Both the position numbers and the translations under genes were made by a program. A stretch of DNA of 37,406 nt from positions 1-37,406 of the IMG/VR virus record IMGVR_UViG_2778261667_000012. One strand, 5' to 3'. Origin of the DNA: a virus. Lineage: Duplodnaviria; Heunggongvirae; Uroviricota; Caudoviricetes. The notes beneath the pieces were generated by a model that saw only the letters and a program-made list of their open reading frames with translations, ran no database searches and had not been told where the DNA came from. Below are positions 6,249 to 10,618 of the stretch, piece after piece (positions within the stretch are counted from its first letter, which is position 1; each line of letters starts with the position of its first letter).

Positions 6249-6800
6249 ATGAAACTCAAACCAATGGGTACTCCTGGTGTGGCTCCGGCACATGTAAAGC
6301 CATGGACACAGCAGGAGGATGAACTTTTAGCCACGTTATACCACTCCCACACAGCGCCGGAGCTGACAAAGCACCTTCAGAGAACCGAGTCAGCAATACG
6401 AAGCCGCATTCGTCTTTTGCTCTCTCAGGGGGTTATTCACGCCAAACGCCCCCACCTGAGCACAAAAGAACTTAGCATGCTCATCAGGAATCGCCACACA
6501 AAAACTATCCGGGAACTCGCGAATGAGTTGGGGCGCTCGCCATCCACGGTGGAACTGAACCTGAGAAAAAGAGGGTATCGGTTCAGGAAATACGGGGAAC
6601 TCCACCACAGAACCAGATACAGCGATCACCTGGTGGAGTTGGTAACTGAACTGCGTGATGAGAAGGGGATGACATTCAGCGAAATCAGGAAGCACATCCG
6701 GGACACAGCCGGGATATCCCTTAAAAGATGGGTTCCCGCCCGGCTTTACGCACGATATACCGCCGCTGACACCGTGCTTTGCGAACTGCTACCGGACTGA
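6249..6800 (+). CDS. Putative DNA-binding protein (Myb/SANT-like or HTH repeats)
   Basis: 183-aa ORF with PWTQQEDELL-type and …TIRELANELGRSPSTV… helix-turn-helix-like segments; the function is inferred. Confidence 0.4.
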   Translation: MKLKPMGTPGVAPAHVKPWTQQEDELLATLYHSHTAPELTKHLQRTESAIRSRIRLLLSQGVIHAKRPHLSTKELSMLIRNRHTKTIRELANELGRSPSTVELNLRKRGYRFRKYGELHHRTRYSDHLVELVTELRDEKGMTFSEIRKHIRDTAGISLKRWVPARLYARYTAADTVLCELLPD

Positions 6801-6816
6801 GTAACCACTATGCACA

Positions 6817-7051
6817 CACAAAAAAACCGCTTGCCATGCCGCAATCAGTCAGGTTACATTTCCGCTGCGCCTCATAAAACGGGTGCCGGGATTGGAACCC
6901 CGCAGACTAACAGAGCGCACAACCGCGCCAGCGGTTTTTTTGTGCGTGCCGTATCGCCACGTCTTTTTCGCGTCAGAATTATGGTGGGGCGTACAGGGCC
7001 AGCATCAGCTGGGCCGGGTCCTCTGTTAGCCGGTAGTTCCAACCCTGTACG
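6817..7051. ncRNA. Structured non-coding region; candidate sRNA or regulatory/ori-like element
   Basis: 15-nt perfect inverted repeat (6817-6831 / 6930-6944) ending in a T7 run, plus a second 9-nt inverted repeat (6990-6998 / 7043-7051). The overlapping ORF 6810..7427 is low-complexity. Confidence 0.25.
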
Positions 7052-7120
7052 TCTCACCACCCCGAGCTTGGAACCTCTGGATGGTGAGTTTTCAAAACTG
7101 ACTAACAGAGAGGCCACATC

Positions 7121-7351
7121 ATGGCAAACCGCAAACAGCACCGCGCTATCGCGGAGCGTCGTCACATCCAGACTGAAATCGACCGCAGACTCACCCGCGC
7201 TGCACACATCGCCTTTATCATGCAATCCAACACATTGCACAGACTCAACAGCACTATTTCAGCCGACTACTGCGCCGCTGTATTCAGCTATCTGGCGGAA
7301 GACCTCCTGTCTCTTCAGGATCTCATCCAGCAGCAAAACAAACTCCATTAA
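7121..7351 (+). CDS. Hypothetical small protein
   Basis: 76-aa ORF with a GAGAGG RBS about 8 nt upstream. Confidence 0.3.
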   Translation: MANRKQHRAIAERRHIQTEIDRRLTRAAHIAFIMQSNTLHRLNSTISADYCAAVFSYLAEDLLSLQDLIQQQNKLH

Positions 7352-7423
7352 TTCCTGTTCCGGGCCTTTCCTGCACCTTGCGGCGGGAGGCCTTCGCACA
7401 TCTGTAACAAGAGGATTGCCGCA

Positions 7424-7789
7424 ATGATTCTCGCCAACGACTTTCTTGAATACCTGCTCAACACAGAGCGTGATCTTGCCGTTCGCGTGCGTGAACGTTA
7501 TGACATGTACCTGAAATCCCTGCCTGTACCGCAGCTCGCTGACGGAAAGATTGTTATTGATGGTCGCTACATGATTGACAGCCACGAGGGAAATTACAGG
7601 CTTTACCGCATTGAAGGTGGCACCCCGTCCGTTATTGGCATTTACCAGCGCCCATCCTCTGCAATCGTCGATGTGATTGCCGACAGCATCCGCATCACAC
7701 ACCACCATGCCGACACAGAAGACACTGTGCTGGAGATTCAGCGGCTGGCTGCCGTTTGTCGTGACACTCTGAACGGAATGACGAAGTAA
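7424..7789 (+). CDS. Hypothetical protein immediately upstream of replication gene A
   Basis: 121-aa ORF; position is analogous to the small ORFs preceding A in P2. Confidence 0.5.
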   Translation: MILANDFLEYLLNTERDLAVRVRERYDMYLKSLPVPQLADGKIVIDGRYMIDSHEGNYRLYRIEGGTPSVIGIYQRPSSAIVDVIADSIRITHHHADTEDTVLEIQRLAAVCRDTLNGMTK

Positions 7790-7795
7790 ATCAGT

Positions 7796-10618
7796 ATGAC
7801 GACAGAGTACATCAGGGACTGGCAACAACCGCGCCACGCAGTAGGACGTGAAGGAACGGAGATCCCCGCACCTGAATCCGCACTTTCCTCCTGGCTGGAT
7901 GCCTACCGGGCAGAGAACGAACGCCGCCAGGAAATGGCTGATGCGGCGTTCTCCGCCACACCGCTGGGCAACCTGATTAATAAAAGCCTGGACGCACAGG
8001 AAAAACAGGACAAAACCATCACACTGGCAGGAGACACCAGAAAGCAGGCACGCGGCGCGGTGGATGAAGCCATGGCCTCGCTGCGCCTGCTGCCGTCCTA
8101 TCTGCGCGATCCGCTTATTCGCCACCTCTCCTTCCTGCGCAAAAAACAGGAAGCTGATCGCCGGAAAGGCAAAAAGAGCTGGCAGGCTGAACGCTACGCG
8201 CGCGGAACCCTGCGCAAAATATTCGAACGCCTGGACCGCACCGACCACCGCTGGCTGACACCGGGTTATCGCTCCCTTGCCGGACACGAACGCCTGGATG
8301 ATTTGCTTTACCTCCCGCAGCTCAACAAACACCAGATACAGACGCTGGCCACCATGACGGCGGCGATGTTCAGCAGCACCTTCGAAAAACTCTGCGATGG
8401 CTTTGGCGCGACTGATGGCGAGCTGACCATGGATGTAACGCTGAAGGCGTATCAGATGCTGGCCCGCATGGCGTTACACCTGCACGCCATGCCTCCGCAT
8501 TATGACGCACTGACAACAGACAAAGACCGGAGGAACGAACCGGACACAGAACTGCTGCCGGGTGCAATCCTTCGCCTGACCTGTGCGGAATGGTGGAAAC
8601 GCAAACTGTGGCTGTTACGTTGCGAGTGGAGAGAAGAACAACTCCGCGCCGCCTGTCTGGTTTCCAGAAAAACATCGCCTTATCTGAGCCAGGACGCGTT
8701 AAGTGAGTTTCGCGCACAGCGCGAGAAAACACGCGATTTCCTGAAAAGTTTCATGCTGGAAAACGAAGACGGGTTCACGATTGATCTCGAGACAGTGTAT
8801 TACGCAGGAGTAAGTAACCCGGTTCACCGTAAGGCAGAAATGATGGCCACCATGAAGGGGCTGGAACTTCTGGCCGAAGCCCGTGGCGACAAAGCGGTGT
8901 TTCTGACTGTCACCTGCCCGTCAAAATACCACGCCACAACAGAGAACGGTCATCCGAATCCCAAATGGAACGGGGCCACCATGCGCGACTCCAGCGATTA
9001 CCTGGTTAACACGTTTTTTGCGGCGGTCCGCAAAAAACTGAACCGCGACGGCCTGCGCTGGTATGGCATCCGCACGGTGGAGCCTCACCATGACGGCACC
9101 GTGCACTGGCATATGATGGTCTTTGCTCATCCGGAAGAAATCGACGGCATCGTGGCCATCACCCGCGATATTGCCATTCAGGAAGACCGCCACGAGCTGG
9201 GTGATGACATAACTCCGCGTTTTAAGGCGGAGTACGTCGACGGCTCAAAAGGCACGCCAACCAGCTACATCGCCACCTACATCGGAAAGAACCTGGACAG
9301 CCGCGCCGTGGATGGCATCGACCCGAAAACGGGCAAGCCACGCGTTGACCACGAAACTGGAAAATCAATGACCGAGAGCGTGGAGCGCGCCATCGGCTGG
9401 GCGCGCCTTCACCGTGTCCGCCAGTTCCAGTTCTTTGGTATCCCCTCCCGTCAGGTGTGGCGTGAACTGCGCCGCCTTGCCAGCCAGATGGCACGCAACC
9501 CGGAAGGCCCACAACGGCTGAAGGATGATGCAATGGATGCGGTACTCGCTGCCGCTGATGCCGGGTGTTTTGCCACCTACATTGAAAAACAGGGCGGCGT
9601 ACTTGTTCCACGCAAGGACTACCTGATTCGCACCGCCTACGACCTCGCAGATGAGCTGAACGATTACGGCGAACAGAGCGTACAGATTTACGGGATCTGG
9701 TCGCCGCTCATCGGGGAATCCTCCCGCGTGTGCACGCACCCGGATAACTGGAAACTGGTAAGACGTAAACCTGAAGCAGAAGACAGCGTCCGCGAAAATG
9801 GTTTTGACCTTCAGGGCGGCCCTGCCGCCCCTTGGACTCGTGGCAATAACTGTCCCCGTGTACAGGAAACGGACAACAACGGGACAGAACAGCCGGAAGA
9901 ACGGCCAGCACCGTGGCCGCAGCTTCCTGACGGCGTTGATGTGGATGAATGGATGCGCTCACTGAAACGGCACAAACGCCGGGCGCTGATGCGTTCGCTG
10001 CGTGACAAACAGGCAAAAAACAGCAGTGATGAAATGCAGAACTGGTCACAGAGCCGCAAACAGCCACAGCCTTTGCCTGATAACCACGAGTTACTCGCTA
10101 AAGAATGGCGGGAATCTGCCGAATCTCTCGGCCTGCATATCGGTGAACAGCAGATGCAGCACCTGTTACGGGGCGGCAGCCTGTACGTTGACGGCAGCAT
10201 CATTGCACCGCAGGGATATGAAATTGTACGTAAACCGGATACCCGCCAGGACAGCCGAATCACGCAGCTCTGGCAACGCCTGAGCCGTAACCACGGCGTA
10301 AGCAGCACGGAGATCCGCCATAACCCGGTCGCCAGCTATCTGGAACAACTAGGGGCATCAGACCCTGAAGCCGCCGCACGCCTGGCATCCACACTTCAGC
10401 AAGACCAGAACACCATGAAAACCCCCGTTACCGTGCTTTCTGACATGCTGCGCGCCATCCGCGACGCAGAGCACGCACAGAGAATCAGTGAAACCACTGA
10501 ACGCGCCCACCGCAAAGCAGACCTGCTGCGGGGTAGCCTGACCAGTGGAAACAAAAAACAGACAGAAACGGGATTCACAAATCCCGTAAATGAGCAAAAA
10601 ACGTGCCGCGATATATGA
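7796..10618 (+). CDS. Replication initiation endonuclease (P2 gpA-like, rolling-circle)
   Basis: 940-aa ORF at the end of the early operon. Contains a VHWHMMVF HUH-type motif, and overall it matches the P2/186 A family as recalled; it has a C-terminal extension relative to P2 A. Confidence 0.8.
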   Translation: MTTEYIRDWQQPRHAVGREGTEIPAPESALSSWLDAYRAENERRQEMADAAFSATPLGNLINKSLDAQEKQDKTITLAGDTRKQARGAVDEAMASLRLLPSYLRDPLIRHLSFLRKKQEADRRKGKKSWQAERYARGTLRKIFERLDRTDHRWLTPGYRSLAGHERLDDLLYLPQLNKHQIQTLATMTAAMFSSTFEKLCDGFGATDGELTMDVTLKAYQMLARMALHLHAMPPHYDALTTDKDRRNEPDTELLPGAILRLTCAEWWKRKLWLLRCEWREEQLRAACLVSRKTSPYLSQDALSEFRAQREKTRDFLKSFMLENEDGFTIDLETVYYAGVSNPVHRKAEMMATMKGLELLAEARGDKAVFLTVTCPSKYHATTENGHPNPKWNGATMRDSSDYLVNTFFAAVRKKLNRDGLRWYGIRTVEPHHDGTVHWHMMVFAHPEEIDGIVAITRDIAIQEDRHELGDDITPRFKAEYVDGSKGTPTSYIATYIGKNLDSRAVDGIDPKTGKPRVDHETGKSMTESVERAIGWARLHRVRQFQFFGIPSRQVWRELRRLASQMARNPEGPQRLKDDAMDAVLAAADAGCFATYIEKQGGVLVPRKDYLIRTAYDLADELNDYGEQSVQIYGIWSPLIGESSRVCTHPDNWKLVRRKPEAEDSVRENGFDLQGGPAAPWTRGNNCPRVQETDNNGTEQPEERPAPWPQLPDGVDVDEWMRSLKRHKRRALMRSLRDKQAKNSSDEMQNWSQSRKQPQPLPDNHELLAKEWRESAESLGLHIGEQQMQHLLRGGSLYVDGSIIAPQGYEIVRKPDTRQDSRITQLWQRLSRNHGVSSTEIRHNPVASYLEQLGASDPEAAARLASTLQQDQNTMKTPVTVLSDMLRAIRDAEHAQRISETTERAHRKADLLRGSLTSGNKKQTETGFTNPVNEQKTCRDI

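What the first reader, a model, noticed from the sequence alone, without database searches (positions are those of the whole stretch)
6801..7120. About 320-bp highly structured non-coding stretch in the early region
Between 6249..6800 and the small ORFs before gene A there is no convincing coding frame. Instead there is a 15-nt perfect inverted repeat (6817-6831 with 6930-6944) whose distal arm ends in a T7 run (terminator-like), and a second inverted repeat (6990-6998 with 7043-7051) plus smaller nested dyads. This is a candidate phage sRNA, attenuator or protein-binding/ori-like element.
Basis: seen in the sequence. Interest (0 to 1): 0.45.

Follow-up and report, generated by a model that had tools for sequence, protein, structure and literature searches.

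The report
Phage IsrK/C4 antisense RNA switch
The structured 320-bp stretch is a known kind of phage RNA switch: a small leader RNA followed by an antisense RNA of the type used by phages P1 and P4, placed here in a P2-like prophage in front of a small P4-epsilon-like gene and the replication gene, so it is real but not new in kind.

Summary
The inverted repeats are real. The stretch holds two Rfam families above their curated thresholds: isrK (6867..6941, 69.5 bits) and C4 antisense RNA (6977..7064, 78.5 bits). The layout matches P1 immI, the P4 immunity region and Gifsy-1 isrK. It runs: promoter-like site, leader RNA with sites a1/b1 and an intrinsic terminator, then C4 with single-stranded a'/b', then targets a2/b2. 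Site b2 abuts the ribosome-binding site of a 76-aa homologue of P4 epsilon, which lies upstream of gene A.

In 143 related cassettes the three copies of each site covary (20 a types, 44 b types). Cognate pairing is nearly perfect; non-cognate pairing is not. C4 helices show compensatory changes.

"No coding frame" is wrong. ORF 6810..7427 matches Pfam Phage_ASH. Its frame is kept free of stop codons across the family, as in P4 eta and Gifsy-1 orf45.

The 15-nt repeat pairs a segment upstream of the internal promoter with the 3' half of the IsrK terminator. It occurs only in cassettes followed by a gene-A homologue (44/44 against 0/69). Its role, whether read-through or processing, is inferred only.

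Verdict: a new member of a known kind, of modest interest.

The parts
6810..7427 (+). Ash/eta-like ORF (205 codons). It starts 9 nt after the stop of the upstream gene and upstream of the internal promoter, spans both RNAs, and ends at TGA 7425-7427, which overlaps ATG 7424 of the next gene (ATGA).
   Evidence: PF10554, 28 bits, cut-off 26. Frame open in 63/66 close variants and 125/143 cassettes, against 11 and 7 for the other frames. Stop codons at the hypervariable sites: 2 in this frame, 87 and 116 in the others. Same frame as P4 eta and the Stx2a ORF.
6817..6831 (+). Proximal arm of the 15-nt perfect inverted repeat (CACAAAAAAACCGCT; extended arm 6812-6834). It is complementary to the 3' half of the IsrK terminator plus its U tract. 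It lies upstream of the -35 box, so only transcripts coming from the early operon contain it.
   Evidence: Invariant in 59 variants. Present only in cassettes followed by a gene-A homologue.
6831..6860 (+). Sigma-70-like promoter TTGCCA-18-TACATT. The predicted start near 6867 coincides with position 1 of the isrK model. Positional equivalent of P4 PLE and Gifsy-1 PisrK.
   Evidence: 9/12 match, the only + strand site between 4625 and 8200. Nearly invariant in variants. Aligned with the P4 region upstream of seqA. Promoter activity is inferred.
6867..6941 (+). IsrK/seqA-type leader RNA. Hairpin 1 is 6867-6886. Hairpin 2 is 6887-6902, with site a1 (TTGGAAC, 6892-6898) in its loop. Site b1 (CTAACAGAG, 6907-6915) sits in the single-stranded linker. 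The intrinsic terminator is 6921-6936 plus U7 (6935-6941).
   Evidence: Rfam RF01394, 69.5 bits, GA 50. Terminator scan. Fold. Site covariation.
6930..6944 (+). Distal arm of the 15-nt inverted repeat: the descending strand of the IsrK terminator, U7 and GUG.
6977..7064 (+). C4/CI-type antisense RNA. The outer stem is 6982-6998 / 7043-7059. Hairpin 1 is 6999-7012. Hairpin 2 is 7013-7034, with b' (CUCUGUUAG, 7021-7029) in its loop. Site a' (GUUCCAA, 7036-7042) lies in the single-stranded junction.
   Evidence: Rfam RF01695, 78.5 bits, GA 45. MFE equals the Rfam structure, z -5.18. 99.8% of cells paired and 12 of 27 pairs with changes on both sides in 47 diverse sequences.
7068..7074 (+). Target site a2 (TTGGAAC). 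It sits in the loop of a conserved alternative hairpin formed by 7052-7059 and 7082-7088.
7102..7113 (+). Target site b2 (CTAACAGAG, 7102-7110), running into the Shine-Dalgarno sequence GAGG (7110-7113) of the gene that starts at 7121.
7121..7351 (+). First regulated gene: a 76-aa homologue of the P4 epsilon (helper derepression) protein.
   Evidence: BLASTP against P4 epsilon: 29% identity over 66 aa, E 2e-8. PF25738: 22.1 bits, below GA 27, but a BLAST-linked relative scores 50.2 bits and P4 epsilon scores 170. phrog_3688. Annotated 'derepression protein' in phage P88.
7424..10618 (+). Downstream genes with no promoter-like site of their own: orf121 (7424..7789) and replication gene A (7796..10618, Phage_GPA).

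Best explanation
The stretch is an RNA immunity cassette of the P1 c4 / P4 cI / Gifsy-1 isrK kind, sitting inside the early operon of a P88-like (Xuanwuvirus, P2-like) prophage.

Proposed mechanism. An internal promoter (6831-6860) starts transcription near 6867. Most transcripts stop at the intrinsic terminator and yield a ~75-nt IsrK/seqA-like leader RNA carrying sites a1 and b1. Read-through transcripts contain the C4/CI-like RNA (about 6982-7060), which is cut out as a stable ~80-nt antisense RNA. Its two single-stranded segments a' and b' pair with a2 (7068-7074) and b2 (7102-7110). Because b2 abuts the Shine-Dalgarno sequence of the epsilon-like gene, pairing blocks ribosome entry. By polarity it should also reduce expression of orf121 and replication gene A. 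The leader carries the same sites (a1/b1), so it can compete for C4, or pair with it in cis, and so tune the switch.

An overlapping ORF (Ash/eta-like, 6810..7427) starts upstream of the internal promoter. It can therefore be translated only on transcripts from the early promoter. This would let lytic-phase transcripts pass the cassette and reach gene A.

Shown here: the two RNA families, their structures, the site complementarity and its covariation, the protected reading frame, and the gene context. Inferred: promoter activity, processing, translational block, polarity, and the bypass.
For: - **Rfam matches.** isrK scores 69.5 bits (GA 50) and C4 scores 78.5 bits (GA 45) in the window. The same pair is found in P88, phiSM, an Stx2a phage and P4, where it coincides with seqA and CI. 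A paper states that these two Rfam profiles detect seqA and CI relatives (PMC10111431).
- **C4 structure.** 99.8% of cells are paired. 12 of 27 pairs change on both sides. Slid controls pair at 32-47%.
- **Site arrangement.** a1 = rc(a') = a2 and b1 = rc(b') = b2 in the window.
- **Covariation in close variants.** In 59 close variants the variation is concentrated in these six sites, which change together (5 a types, at least 13 b types).
- **Covariation across the family.** In 143 unique cassettes there are 20 a types and 44 b types. Own C4 against own targets gives a mean of 31.0 of 32 pairs, and 78 cassettes are perfect at all four sites. Non-cognate combinations give 25.9, and 0 of 1430 are perfect.
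- **Ribosome-binding site.** b2 ends at the first base of GAGG, 7 nt before ATG 7121.
- **Downstream gene classes.** Among 134 cassettes: epsilon-like 51, Rha antirepressor 40, P4 kil-like 39, Bro-N 1. This fits a family that gates derepression functions.
- **Dependence of gene A.** No promoter-like site lies between 6860 and 8200.
- **Experimental precedent in homologues.** In Gifsy-1 the isrK promoter drives the downstream operon, which is transcribed but not translated. A ~80-nt RNA (STnc1160) is processed from the read-through transcript (PMC4825925). IsrK and STnc1160 are highly expressed in lysogens (PMC7067206).
- **From established knowledge, not re-read here.** P1/P7 C4 blocks icd translation and causes Rho-dependent termination before ant. 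P4 CI pairs with seqA and seqC and terminates the left operon. Translation of P4 eta from PLL transcripts bypasses this.
Against: - There are no expression data for this phage or its close relatives. The promoter is only a 9/12 consensus match, and such matches are no more frequent here than in shuffles.
- The antisense contacts are short (7 + 9 bp).
- In Gifsy-1, the only member of the isrK family studied in detail, the demonstrated logic is activation by short IsrK acting in trans. Constitutive STnc1160 did not prevent the IsrK effect (PMC4825925). The balance between C4 repression and IsrK activation may therefore differ from the P1/P4 model.
- The 76-aa gene is only weakly epsilon-like (below the Pfam threshold). 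It shows little third-position bias, so its function is uncertain.
- The effect on gene A is inferred from operon layout alone.
Confidence: 0.82

Rival explanations
1. The Gifsy-1 logic dominates. The read-through mRNA folds into a translationally closed form. The short IsrK-like RNA acts in trans as an activator that opens it. Translation of the internal ORF that starts at AUG 6981 (the orf45 equivalent) is then coupled to the next gene. The C4-like piece is mainly a processing product, not the repressor.
For: - This was demonstrated experimentally for the homologous Gifsy-1 locus (PMC4825925).
- The window keeps the AUGGUG at the 5' end of C4 (6981) in the protected frame.
- That frame ends in an ATGA overlap with orf121.
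- A conserved alternative helix (7052-7059 with 7082-7088) exists.
Against: - The three-way covariation includes a2/b2 next to the ribosome-binding site of the epsilon-like gene. That gene is in another frame and has its own Shine-Dalgarno sequence. This is the P1/P4 target arrangement.
- The two models are not mutually exclusive.
Confidence: 0.25
2. The stretch is simply a protein-coding gene of the Ash family, as genome annotation pipelines call it. The RNA structure is incidental.
For: - Pfam PF10554 matches above its cut-off.
- PGAP annotates an 'ash family protein' pseudogene here in E. coli genomes.
- PHROG families labelled as transcriptional regulators match.
- The frame is protected from stop codons.
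Against: - Variation obeys RNA pairing, not protein conservation. Stems change by compensatory double substitutions, and six short sites covary by complementarity.
- The encoded peptide changes radically between types.
- The Pfam score is marginal (28 against 26 bits).
- In P4 the immunity factor was shown genetically to be the RNA (established knowledge).
- The protected frame is better explained by a need for ribosomes to pass through, as with P4 eta and Gifsy-1 orf45.
Confidence: 0.05
3. The 15-nt inverted repeat is a DNA-level feature. Examples would be an UP element (the A7 tract) that happens to mirror the terminator's T tract, a protein-binding palindrome, or an origin-like element. It would have no RNA role.
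For: - The A7 tract lies about 41-47 nt upstream of the predicted start, where proximal UP elements lie (own knowledge).
- Both arms are invariant, so no covariation can be shown.
- P4 also has an A5 tract at the same place.
Against: - Eight further bases beyond the A/T tracts are also perfectly complementary.
- Complementarity on both sides of the tracts is retained in two diverged lineages (L175, L103) despite changes in length and sequence.
- The repeat is strictly tied to cassettes followed by a gene-A homologue (44/44 against 0/69).
- No iterons are present.
- The P2 origin lies inside gene A (established knowledge).
Confidence: 0.15

Closest known systems
Satellite phage P4 immunity region (PLE - seqA - CI RNA - seqC - eta/kil - epsilon - orf151 - cnr - alpha)
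   Same: - Same two Rfam families in the same order.
- The whole module aligns, from the eta start codon through the promoter region, seqA, terminator, CI and seqC to the start codon of the next gene.
- A long ORF spans the RNAs in the same frame and matches Pfam Phage_ASH.
- An epsilon homologue and a replication gene lie downstream.
   Different: - The host element is a helper-type P2-like phage, not a satellite.
- The replication gene is P2-type gene A, not the alpha primase.
- The epsilon-like gene directly follows seqC/a2b2, where P4 has kil.
- The spanning ORF is out of frame with that gene and is coupled to orf121 instead.
- P4 lacks the long-range repeat around the leader.
Phage P1/P7 immI operon (a1 b1 - c4 - a2 b2 - icd - ant)
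   Same: - Antisense RNA with two single-stranded recognition segments.
- Copies of the targets both upstream and downstream.
- The downstream target overlaps the ribosome-binding site of a small first gene.
- Specificity polymorphism in the a/b sites gives heteroimmunity.
   Different: - The regulated genes differ: icd/ant in P1, epsilon-like/orf121/A here.
- The upstream a1b1 part of the window matches the isrK model, not the c4-a1b1 model (RF03163, 16 bits, GA 46.7).
- I did not retrieve P1 sequences, so this comparison rests on published knowledge.
Salmonella Gifsy-1 isrK - orf45 (STnc1160) - anrP locus
   Same: - isrK family leader with its own promoter and a leaky terminator.
- A C4-like RNA processed from the read-through transcript.
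- An ORF starting at the AUGGUG of C4 whose stop overlaps the next start codon.
- A derepression-type gene downstream (PMC4825925).
   Different: - Gifsy-1 is a lambdoid prophage.
- Its regulated gene is a Rha/Bro-type antirepressor that turns on antQ.
- Here the ORF is 149-205 codons, not 45, and runs across the epsilon-like gene.

Membership tests
C4 antisense RNA (Rfam RF01695; P1 C4, P4 CI) | Covariance-model score at or above the curated gathering score | tested here: met
   78.5 bits against GA 45, full-length match 1-87/87 at 6977..7064
C4 antisense RNA (Rfam RF01695; P1 C4, P4 CI) | Long closing stem enclosing two hairpins, supported by compensatory changes | tested here: met
   MFE equals the Rfam structure. 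99.8% of cells paired; 12 of 27 pairs change on both sides in 47 sequences. Helix 3 was fixed by my search pattern, so it is uninformative.
C4 antisense RNA (Rfam RF01695; P1 C4, P4 CI) | Two single-stranded segments (a', b') complementary to sites just upstream of the first regulated gene (a2, b2 / seqC) | tested here: met
   7 + 9 bp in the window, with b2 abutting the Shine-Dalgarno sequence. Covaries across 143 cassettes.
C4 antisense RNA (Rfam RF01695; P1 C4, P4 CI) | A second copy of the target sites upstream of the RNA (a1, b1 / seqA) | tested here: met
   6892-6898 and 6907-6915
C4 antisense RNA (Rfam RF01695; P1 C4, P4 CI) | Stable ~77-nt RNA processed from a longer transcript (RNase P) that represses in trans | not testable with these tools
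   Needs Northern blots or RNA-seq, and genetics.
isrK Hfq-binding RNA (Rfam RF01394; relatives of P4 seqA) | Covariance-model score at or above the gathering score | tested here: met
   69.5 bits against GA 50, positions 1-77/77 at 6867..6941
isrK Hfq-binding RNA (Rfam RF01394; relatives of P4 seqA) | Own promoter directly upstream | tested here: inconclusive
   TTGCCA-18-TACATT ends 7 nt before model position 1 and is conserved. It is only a consensus match, and there are no transcript data.
isrK Hfq-binding RNA (Rfam RF01394; relatives of P4 seqA) | Rho-independent terminator at the 3' end | tested here: met
   Hairpin 6921-6936 plus T7
isrK Hfq-binding RNA (Rfam RF01394; relatives of P4 seqA) | Hfq binding | not testable with these tools
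   Needs co-immunoprecipitation.
c4-a1b1 motif (Rfam RF03163) | Covariance-model score at or above the gathering score | tested here: not met
   16 bits against GA 46.7, E 0.49, at 6854..6906. The a1/b1 part belongs to the isrK-type leader instead.
Ash protein family (Pfam PF10554; P4 eta / old 'cI' ORF) | HMM score at or above the gathering score | tested here: met
   28 bits against 26 for ORF 6810..7427. P4 eta scores 82.4.
Ash protein family (Pfam PF10554; P4 eta / old 'cI' ORF) | Reading frame kept open across relatives | tested here: met
   125/143 against 11 and 7 for the other frames. Stop codons at variable sites: 2 against 87 and 116.
Ash protein family (Pfam PF10554; P4 eta / old 'cI' ORF) | Translated in vivo | not testable with these tools
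   Needs ribosome profiling or fusions.
P4 epsilon / Derepression protein family (Pfam PF25738), for gene 7121..7351 | HMM score at or above the gathering score | tested here: not met
   22.1 bits against 27. A BLAST-linked relative scores 50.2 and P4 epsilon scores 170.
P4 epsilon / Derepression protein family (Pfam PF25738), for gene 7121..7351 | Direct sequence similarity to P4 epsilon | tested here: met
   29% identity over 66 aa, E 2e-8 in a pairwise search
P4 epsilon / Derepression protein family (Pfam PF25738), for gene 7121..7351 | Binds and inactivates a P2-type C repressor | not testable with these tools
   Needs an interaction or induction assay.

The most novel reading that the evidence does not exclude
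In P2-like phages the P4/P1-type RNA cassette has been rebuilt as a gate on the replication gene that senses which promoter a transcript came from. Transcripts from the cassette's own promoter end at the IsrK terminator or are silenced by C4. Transcripts from the early promoter carry both the start of the Ash-frame ORF and a 15-23-nt segment that pairs with the terminator's 3' half. They are therefore read through, or processed, to express the epsilon-like gene and gene A. The hypervariable a/b code would then define dozens of RNA-based immunity types among the P2-like prophages found in about a fifth of E. coli genomes.
Probability: 0.3. Interest if true: 0.55.

Novelty: new member of a known kind. 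Interest (0 to 1): 0.3.

Why it matters
**Annotation.** Deposited phage records leave this stretch blank (phiSM) or place a minus-strand hypothetical gene on it (P88). RefSeq calls it an 'ash family protein' pseudogene. It should be annotated as isrK plus C4 RNA genes.

**Helper and satellite share a cassette.** A helper-type P2-like phage carries the same immunity/derepression cassette as its satellite P4: RNA switch, spanning ORF and epsilon homologue. This bears on how the satellite and helper exchanged regulatory parts.

**Effect on satellite detection.** Pfam PF10554, which has been used as the 'epsilon' marker for P4-like satellites, is in effect the translated RNA cassette. It also occurs in helper and lambdoid phages.

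**Natural orthogonal RNA regulators.** The many covarying a/b types form a natural set of orthogonal antisense-target pairs.

None of this changes what is known about how such cassettes work.

Tried and rejected
- **tRNA/tmRNA:** none in the window.
- **Origin or iteron element:** no tandem or iterated direct repeats. The only direct repeats are the a and b sites.
- **Minus-strand gene** (ORF 6872..7240, and the P88 minus-strand CDS): no Pfam match. Minus-strand frames are open less often (68/139 at best) and carry 13-125 stop codons at the variable sites, against 2 for the protected plus-strand frame.
- **Universality of the 15-nt repeat:** rejected. It is absent from P4, Stx2 and 69 other cassettes.
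- **Cross-immunity between helper-type and satellite-type cassettes:** no (a,b) combination is shared between element classes in this sample.
- **orf121 as a homologue of P4 orf151:** no similarity.
- **BLASTP of ORF205 against P4 eta:** found nothing. The shared frame shows only in the DNA alignment and the Pfam matches.
- **Literature:**
  - One search, for the P4 eta/kil papers, returned only irrelevant hits.
  - One look-up by a guessed PMC id for the P4 eta/kil paper failed, so the P4 and P1 mechanisms are cited from my own knowledge.
- **Covariation test of the 15-nt repeat:** not possible, because both arms are invariant in the close relatives.
Full report
**What is in the sequence.** The window is a P2-like prophage of the P88 group (genus Xuanwuvirus). 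Positions 6700-7450 are 95.9% identical to Citrobacter phage Shae_phiSM and about 86% identical to Escherichia phage P88. The gene order around the finding is C repressor / cox / small early genes / an HTH protein (6249..6800) / the finding / a 76-aa gene (7121..7351) / a 121-aa gene (7424..7789) / replication gene A (7796..10618, Pfam Phage_GPA, E 9e-131).

- The 15-nt perfect repeat 6817-6831 / 6930-6944 extends to 23 nt at 91% complementarity.
- Its distal arm runs into T7 (6935-6941).
- The repeat 6990-6998 / 7043-7051 lies inside a 17-bp stem.

The stretch folds far better than shuffled sequence (z -4.57 for 6801-7125 and z -5.18 for 6977-7064).

**Identification.** A scan of the whole window against Rfam gives two matches, both inside the finding and both well above the curated thresholds. 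They are isrK (RF01394) at 6867..6941, 69.5 bits (GA 50), and C4 antisense RNA (RF01695) at 6977..7064, 78.5 bits (GA 45). A permissive scan of 6500-7900 adds only a sub-threshold c4-a1b1 match (16 bits, GA 46.7).

The same pair of matches, in the same order, occurs in P88, phiSM, four IMG/VR relatives, an Stx2a phage and satellite phage P4. In P4 the C4 match is the CI immunity RNA and the isrK match is the seqA region. A published paper says the same, that the Rfam C4 and isrK profiles detect CI and seqA relatives (PMC10111431). A DNA alignment of the window with P88, Stx2a_1447 and P4 lines up the whole module. It runs from an upstream ATG, through the promoter region, leader, terminator, antisense RNA and downstream target, to the start codon of the next gene.

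**Anatomy.**
- A sigma-70-like site, TTGCCA-18-TACATT (6831-6860), ends 7 nt before position 1 of the isrK model. It is the only + strand promoter-like site between 4625 and 8200.
- The leader has two hairpins, a single-stranded linker and an intrinsic terminator (6921-6936 plus U7).
- C4 has a 17-bp closing stem and two hairpins.
- The loop of its second hairpin (b', CUCUGUUAG, 7021-7029) is complementary to CTAACAGAG in two places. One is in the leader linker (b1, 6907-6915). The other is at 7102-7110 (b2).
- The single-stranded junction (a', GUUCCAA, 7036-7042) is complementary to TTGGAAC in the loop of leader hairpin 2 (a1, 6892-6898) and at 7068-7074 (a2).
- Site b2 ends on the first base of the Shine-Dalgarno sequence GAGG (7110-7113), 7 nt before ATG 7121.

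This is the a1 b1 - c4(a' b') - a2 b2 layout known from P1/P7 immI and the seqA - CI(seqB) - seqC layout of P4 (established knowledge).

**Evidence from relatives.**
- *Close variants.* The 76-aa gene retrieved 80 IMG/VR loci. All of them keep the ~324-nt upstream module, and homology starts at window 6810-6817.
- *Where the variation lies.* Among 59 unique versions the variation is concentrated in the six a/b sites, and these change together. There are 5 a types and at least 13 b types, with a1 = rc(a') = a2 and b1 = rc(b') = b2 in nearly every sequence. Several of the departures are G-U compatible.
- *Broader sample.* A pattern scan for the C4 core added loci from other phage types, giving 143 unique cassettes with 20 a types and 44 b types.
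- *Cognate against non-cognate.* Cognate pairing averages 31.0 of 32 possible pairs, and 78 cassettes are perfect at all four sites. Non-cognate combinations average 25.9, and none of 1430 is perfect.
- *C4 structure.* It holds in 99.8% of cells in 47 diverse sequences, with 12 of 27 pairs changed on both sides. Structures slid by 1-3 columns pair at 32-47%. Helix 3 was fixed by my search pattern and says nothing.
- *Alternative helix.* A helix between the 3' strand of the C4 stem (7052-7059) and 7082-7088 puts a2 in a loop. It is kept in 134 of 139 cassettes.

**What is regulated.** The 76-aa protein is a distant homologue of P4 epsilon, the protein with which P4 inactivates the P2 repressor:
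- 29% identity over 66 residues, E 2e-8 pairwise.
- Below threshold on Pfam PF25738 (22.1 against 27 bits), but linked by BLAST to relatives that score 50 bits. P4 epsilon itself scores 170.

Across 134 cassettes the first gene downstream is epsilon-like in 51, a Rha antirepressor in 40, a P4 kil-like small protein in 39 and Bro-N in 1. The family therefore gates derepression and killing functions in general. In this window orf121 and gene A follow without any promoter-like site. They should therefore depend on transcripts that cross the cassette. That dependence is an inference.

ORF 6810..7427 (205 codons) starts 9 nt after the stop of the upstream gene and upstream of the internal promoter. 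It spans both RNAs and ends in an ATGA overlap with orf121.
- It matches Pfam Phage_ASH (28 bits, cut-off 26). P4 eta (197 codons, confirmed open) scores 82 bits. The 5' part of the Stx2a 'antirepressor' CDS scores 47 bits.
- All three use the same frame through the RNAs ('..IMVGR..' from the AUGGUG at the 5' end of C4). This AUG is the start of orf45 in Gifsy-1 (PMC4825925).
- The frame is open in 63 of 66 close variants. Over IsrK plus C4 it is open in 125 of 143 cassettes, against 11 and 7 for the other frames.
- At the hypervariable sites a1, b1, a' and b', stop codons occur 2 times in this frame. They occur 87 and 116 times in the other plus-strand frames and 13-125 times in the minus-strand frames.
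- In a distant P2-like relative (L103, gene A 30% identical) the same ORF ends overlapping the start codon of gene A itself.

I read this as selection for ribosome passage, not for a protein product. The peptide changes radically between types, while the nucleotides obey RNA pairing. It matches what is published for P4 eta: translation from PLL transcripts bypasses immunity-dependent termination (own knowledge, paper not retrievable). It also matches Gifsy-1 orf45, which is translationally coupled to anrP (PMC4825925).

**The 15-nt repeat itself.** Its distal arm is the descending strand of the IsrK terminator plus the U tract. Its proximal arm lies upstream of the -35 box, so it is present only in transcripts arriving from the early operon.
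- With the proximal arm included, the predicted structure replaces the terminator hairpin with the long helix (-58.0 kcal/mol, z -4.74, against -31.5 for the promoter-proximal transcript).
- Both arms are invariant in the 59 close variants, so covariation cannot be tested.
- The repeat is absent from P4, Stx2 and most cassettes.
- It tracks context exactly. All 44 cassettes with at least 10 nt of such complementarity are followed by a gene-A homologue within 3.5 kb, and none of the 69 without it are.
- This includes two lineages whose gene A is only 30-34% identical. In these the arms differ (A5 instead of A7, four extra bases after the T tract), yet complementarity remains on both sides of the tracts.
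- These represent perhaps three independent lineages, so the association is suggestive, not proof.

A plausible rationale is that P2-like phages lack N/Q-type antitermination and must get early transcripts past this terminator to reach gene A. Kinetically, a competitor for the 3' half of a terminator is a weak antiterminator. A 23-bp stalk that serves as an RNase III processing site is an equally good reading. An UP-element role for the A tract cannot be excluded. I leave this unresolved.

**Mechanism proposed.**
- *Shown:* family membership of both RNAs, their structures, the complementarity and its covariation, the position of b2 at the ribosome-binding site, the protected frame, and the gene context.
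- *Inferred from homologues:* the internal promoter makes mostly short leader RNA. Read-through yields C4. C4 pairs with a2/b2, blocks translation of the epsilon-like gene and, by polarity, lowers orf121 and A expression. The leader's a1/b1 sites compete for C4 or pair with it in cis. Early-promoter transcripts escape through translation of the Ash-frame ORF and/or the long-range helix.
- *Precedent:* in Gifsy-1 the homologous promoter drives an operon that is transcribed but not translated, and an ~80-nt RNA is processed from it (PMC4825925). IsrK and STnc1160 are abundant in lysogens (PMC7067206).
- *Caveat:* the Gifsy-1 work shows activation by IsrK in trans, not repression by the C4-like RNA. 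The relative weight of the two modes here is open.

**How common, and how annotated.** The 325-bp stretch has megablast matches in 1168 of 5426 complete E. coli genomes. In 1145 genomes one place covers at least 80% of it, mostly at 80-90% identity. RefSeq labels it an 'ash family protein' pseudogene. phiSM leaves it blank and P88 places a minus-strand hypothetical CDS on it. P88 was obtained by mitomycin C treatment (PMC5285337). I found no paper on P88-like phages that mentions this cassette, in a search limited to the held library.

**Verdict.** The element belongs to two curated RNA families with well-studied homologues in P1, P4 and Gifsy-1. It is a new member of a known kind. The points that go beyond the textbook are:
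- its place in a helper-type P2-like phage, in front of an epsilon homologue and gene A;
- the family-wide protection of the overlapping reading frame;
- the gene-A-specific long-range repeat.

Interest 0.3.

Noticed in passing
window 6810..7427; L083 1669-2262 (-); L084 2146-2760: Pfam PF10554 (Phage_ASH) is in effect the translation of the isrK + C4 RNA cassette. A survey of P4-like satellites used PF10554 as its 'epsilon' marker (PMC8628076). True P4 epsilon is PF25738 (170 bits). Helper-type P2-like phages and Stx/lambdoid phages also carry ORFs that match PF10554.
   Followed up: partly
L003-L082, region equivalent to window 6810-7351: Identity of the RNA cassette is uncoupled from identity of the adjacent 76-aa gene. 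L044 has 70% protein identity but 99.4% RNA identity. L003 has 100% protein identity but 84.8% RNA identity. The gene upstream of the cassette also differs between variants. Recombination breakpoints therefore flank and cut the cassette.
   Followed up: partly
L013 and L025 (equivalents of window 6884-7112): Two apparent recombinants inside the cassette. In L013 the C4 loop b' (CAACTACAG type) does not match its own b1/b2 (CAACCAAAG). In L025 site a1 differs from its a'/a2. Such phages might be partly derepressed.
   Followed up: no
134 cassettes from L003-L204: The b-site types are disjoint between the three main element classes (epsilon-like 14 types, P4 kil-like 13, Rha antirepressor 11); the only b type shared at all is CCTTATTGG, between kil-like and a single unclassified cassette. 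No (a,b) combination is shared between any classes. This is consistent with selection for orthogonality between co-resident elements, but the sample is small.
   Followed up: partly
window 7052-7059 with 7082-7088: The 3' strand of the C4 closing stem can also pair with a segment downstream, which places a2 in a hairpin loop. This alternative helix is kept in 134 of 139 cassettes, with changed sequences in P4. It resembles the alternative structures described for Gifsy-1.
   Followed up: partly
L103 7687..8298 and 8295..10244: In a distant P2-like relative the Ash-frame ORF (203 codons, PF10554 26.3 bits) ends overlapping the start codon of gene A itself. A 75-aa ORF is nested in another frame. 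L103 and L146 each carry two C4 pattern matches.
   Followed up: partly
window 7121..7351: The epsilon-like gene shows almost no excess of third-codon-position changes among 38 alleles (411/383/544 substitutions; 55/56/65 polymorphic columns). It lies entirely inside the Ash-frame ORF in another frame. The cause could be fast evolution or a double coding constraint.
   Followed up: no
window 6249..6800: The gene just upstream of the cassette encodes a 183-aa multi-HTH protein (phrog_323 'transcriptional regulator, D5-like', E 3e-33). Other cassette-bearing relatives have unrelated genes in its place: a serine protease/lipoprotein in P88 and an SPFH-domain protein in an E. coli strain.
   Followed up: no
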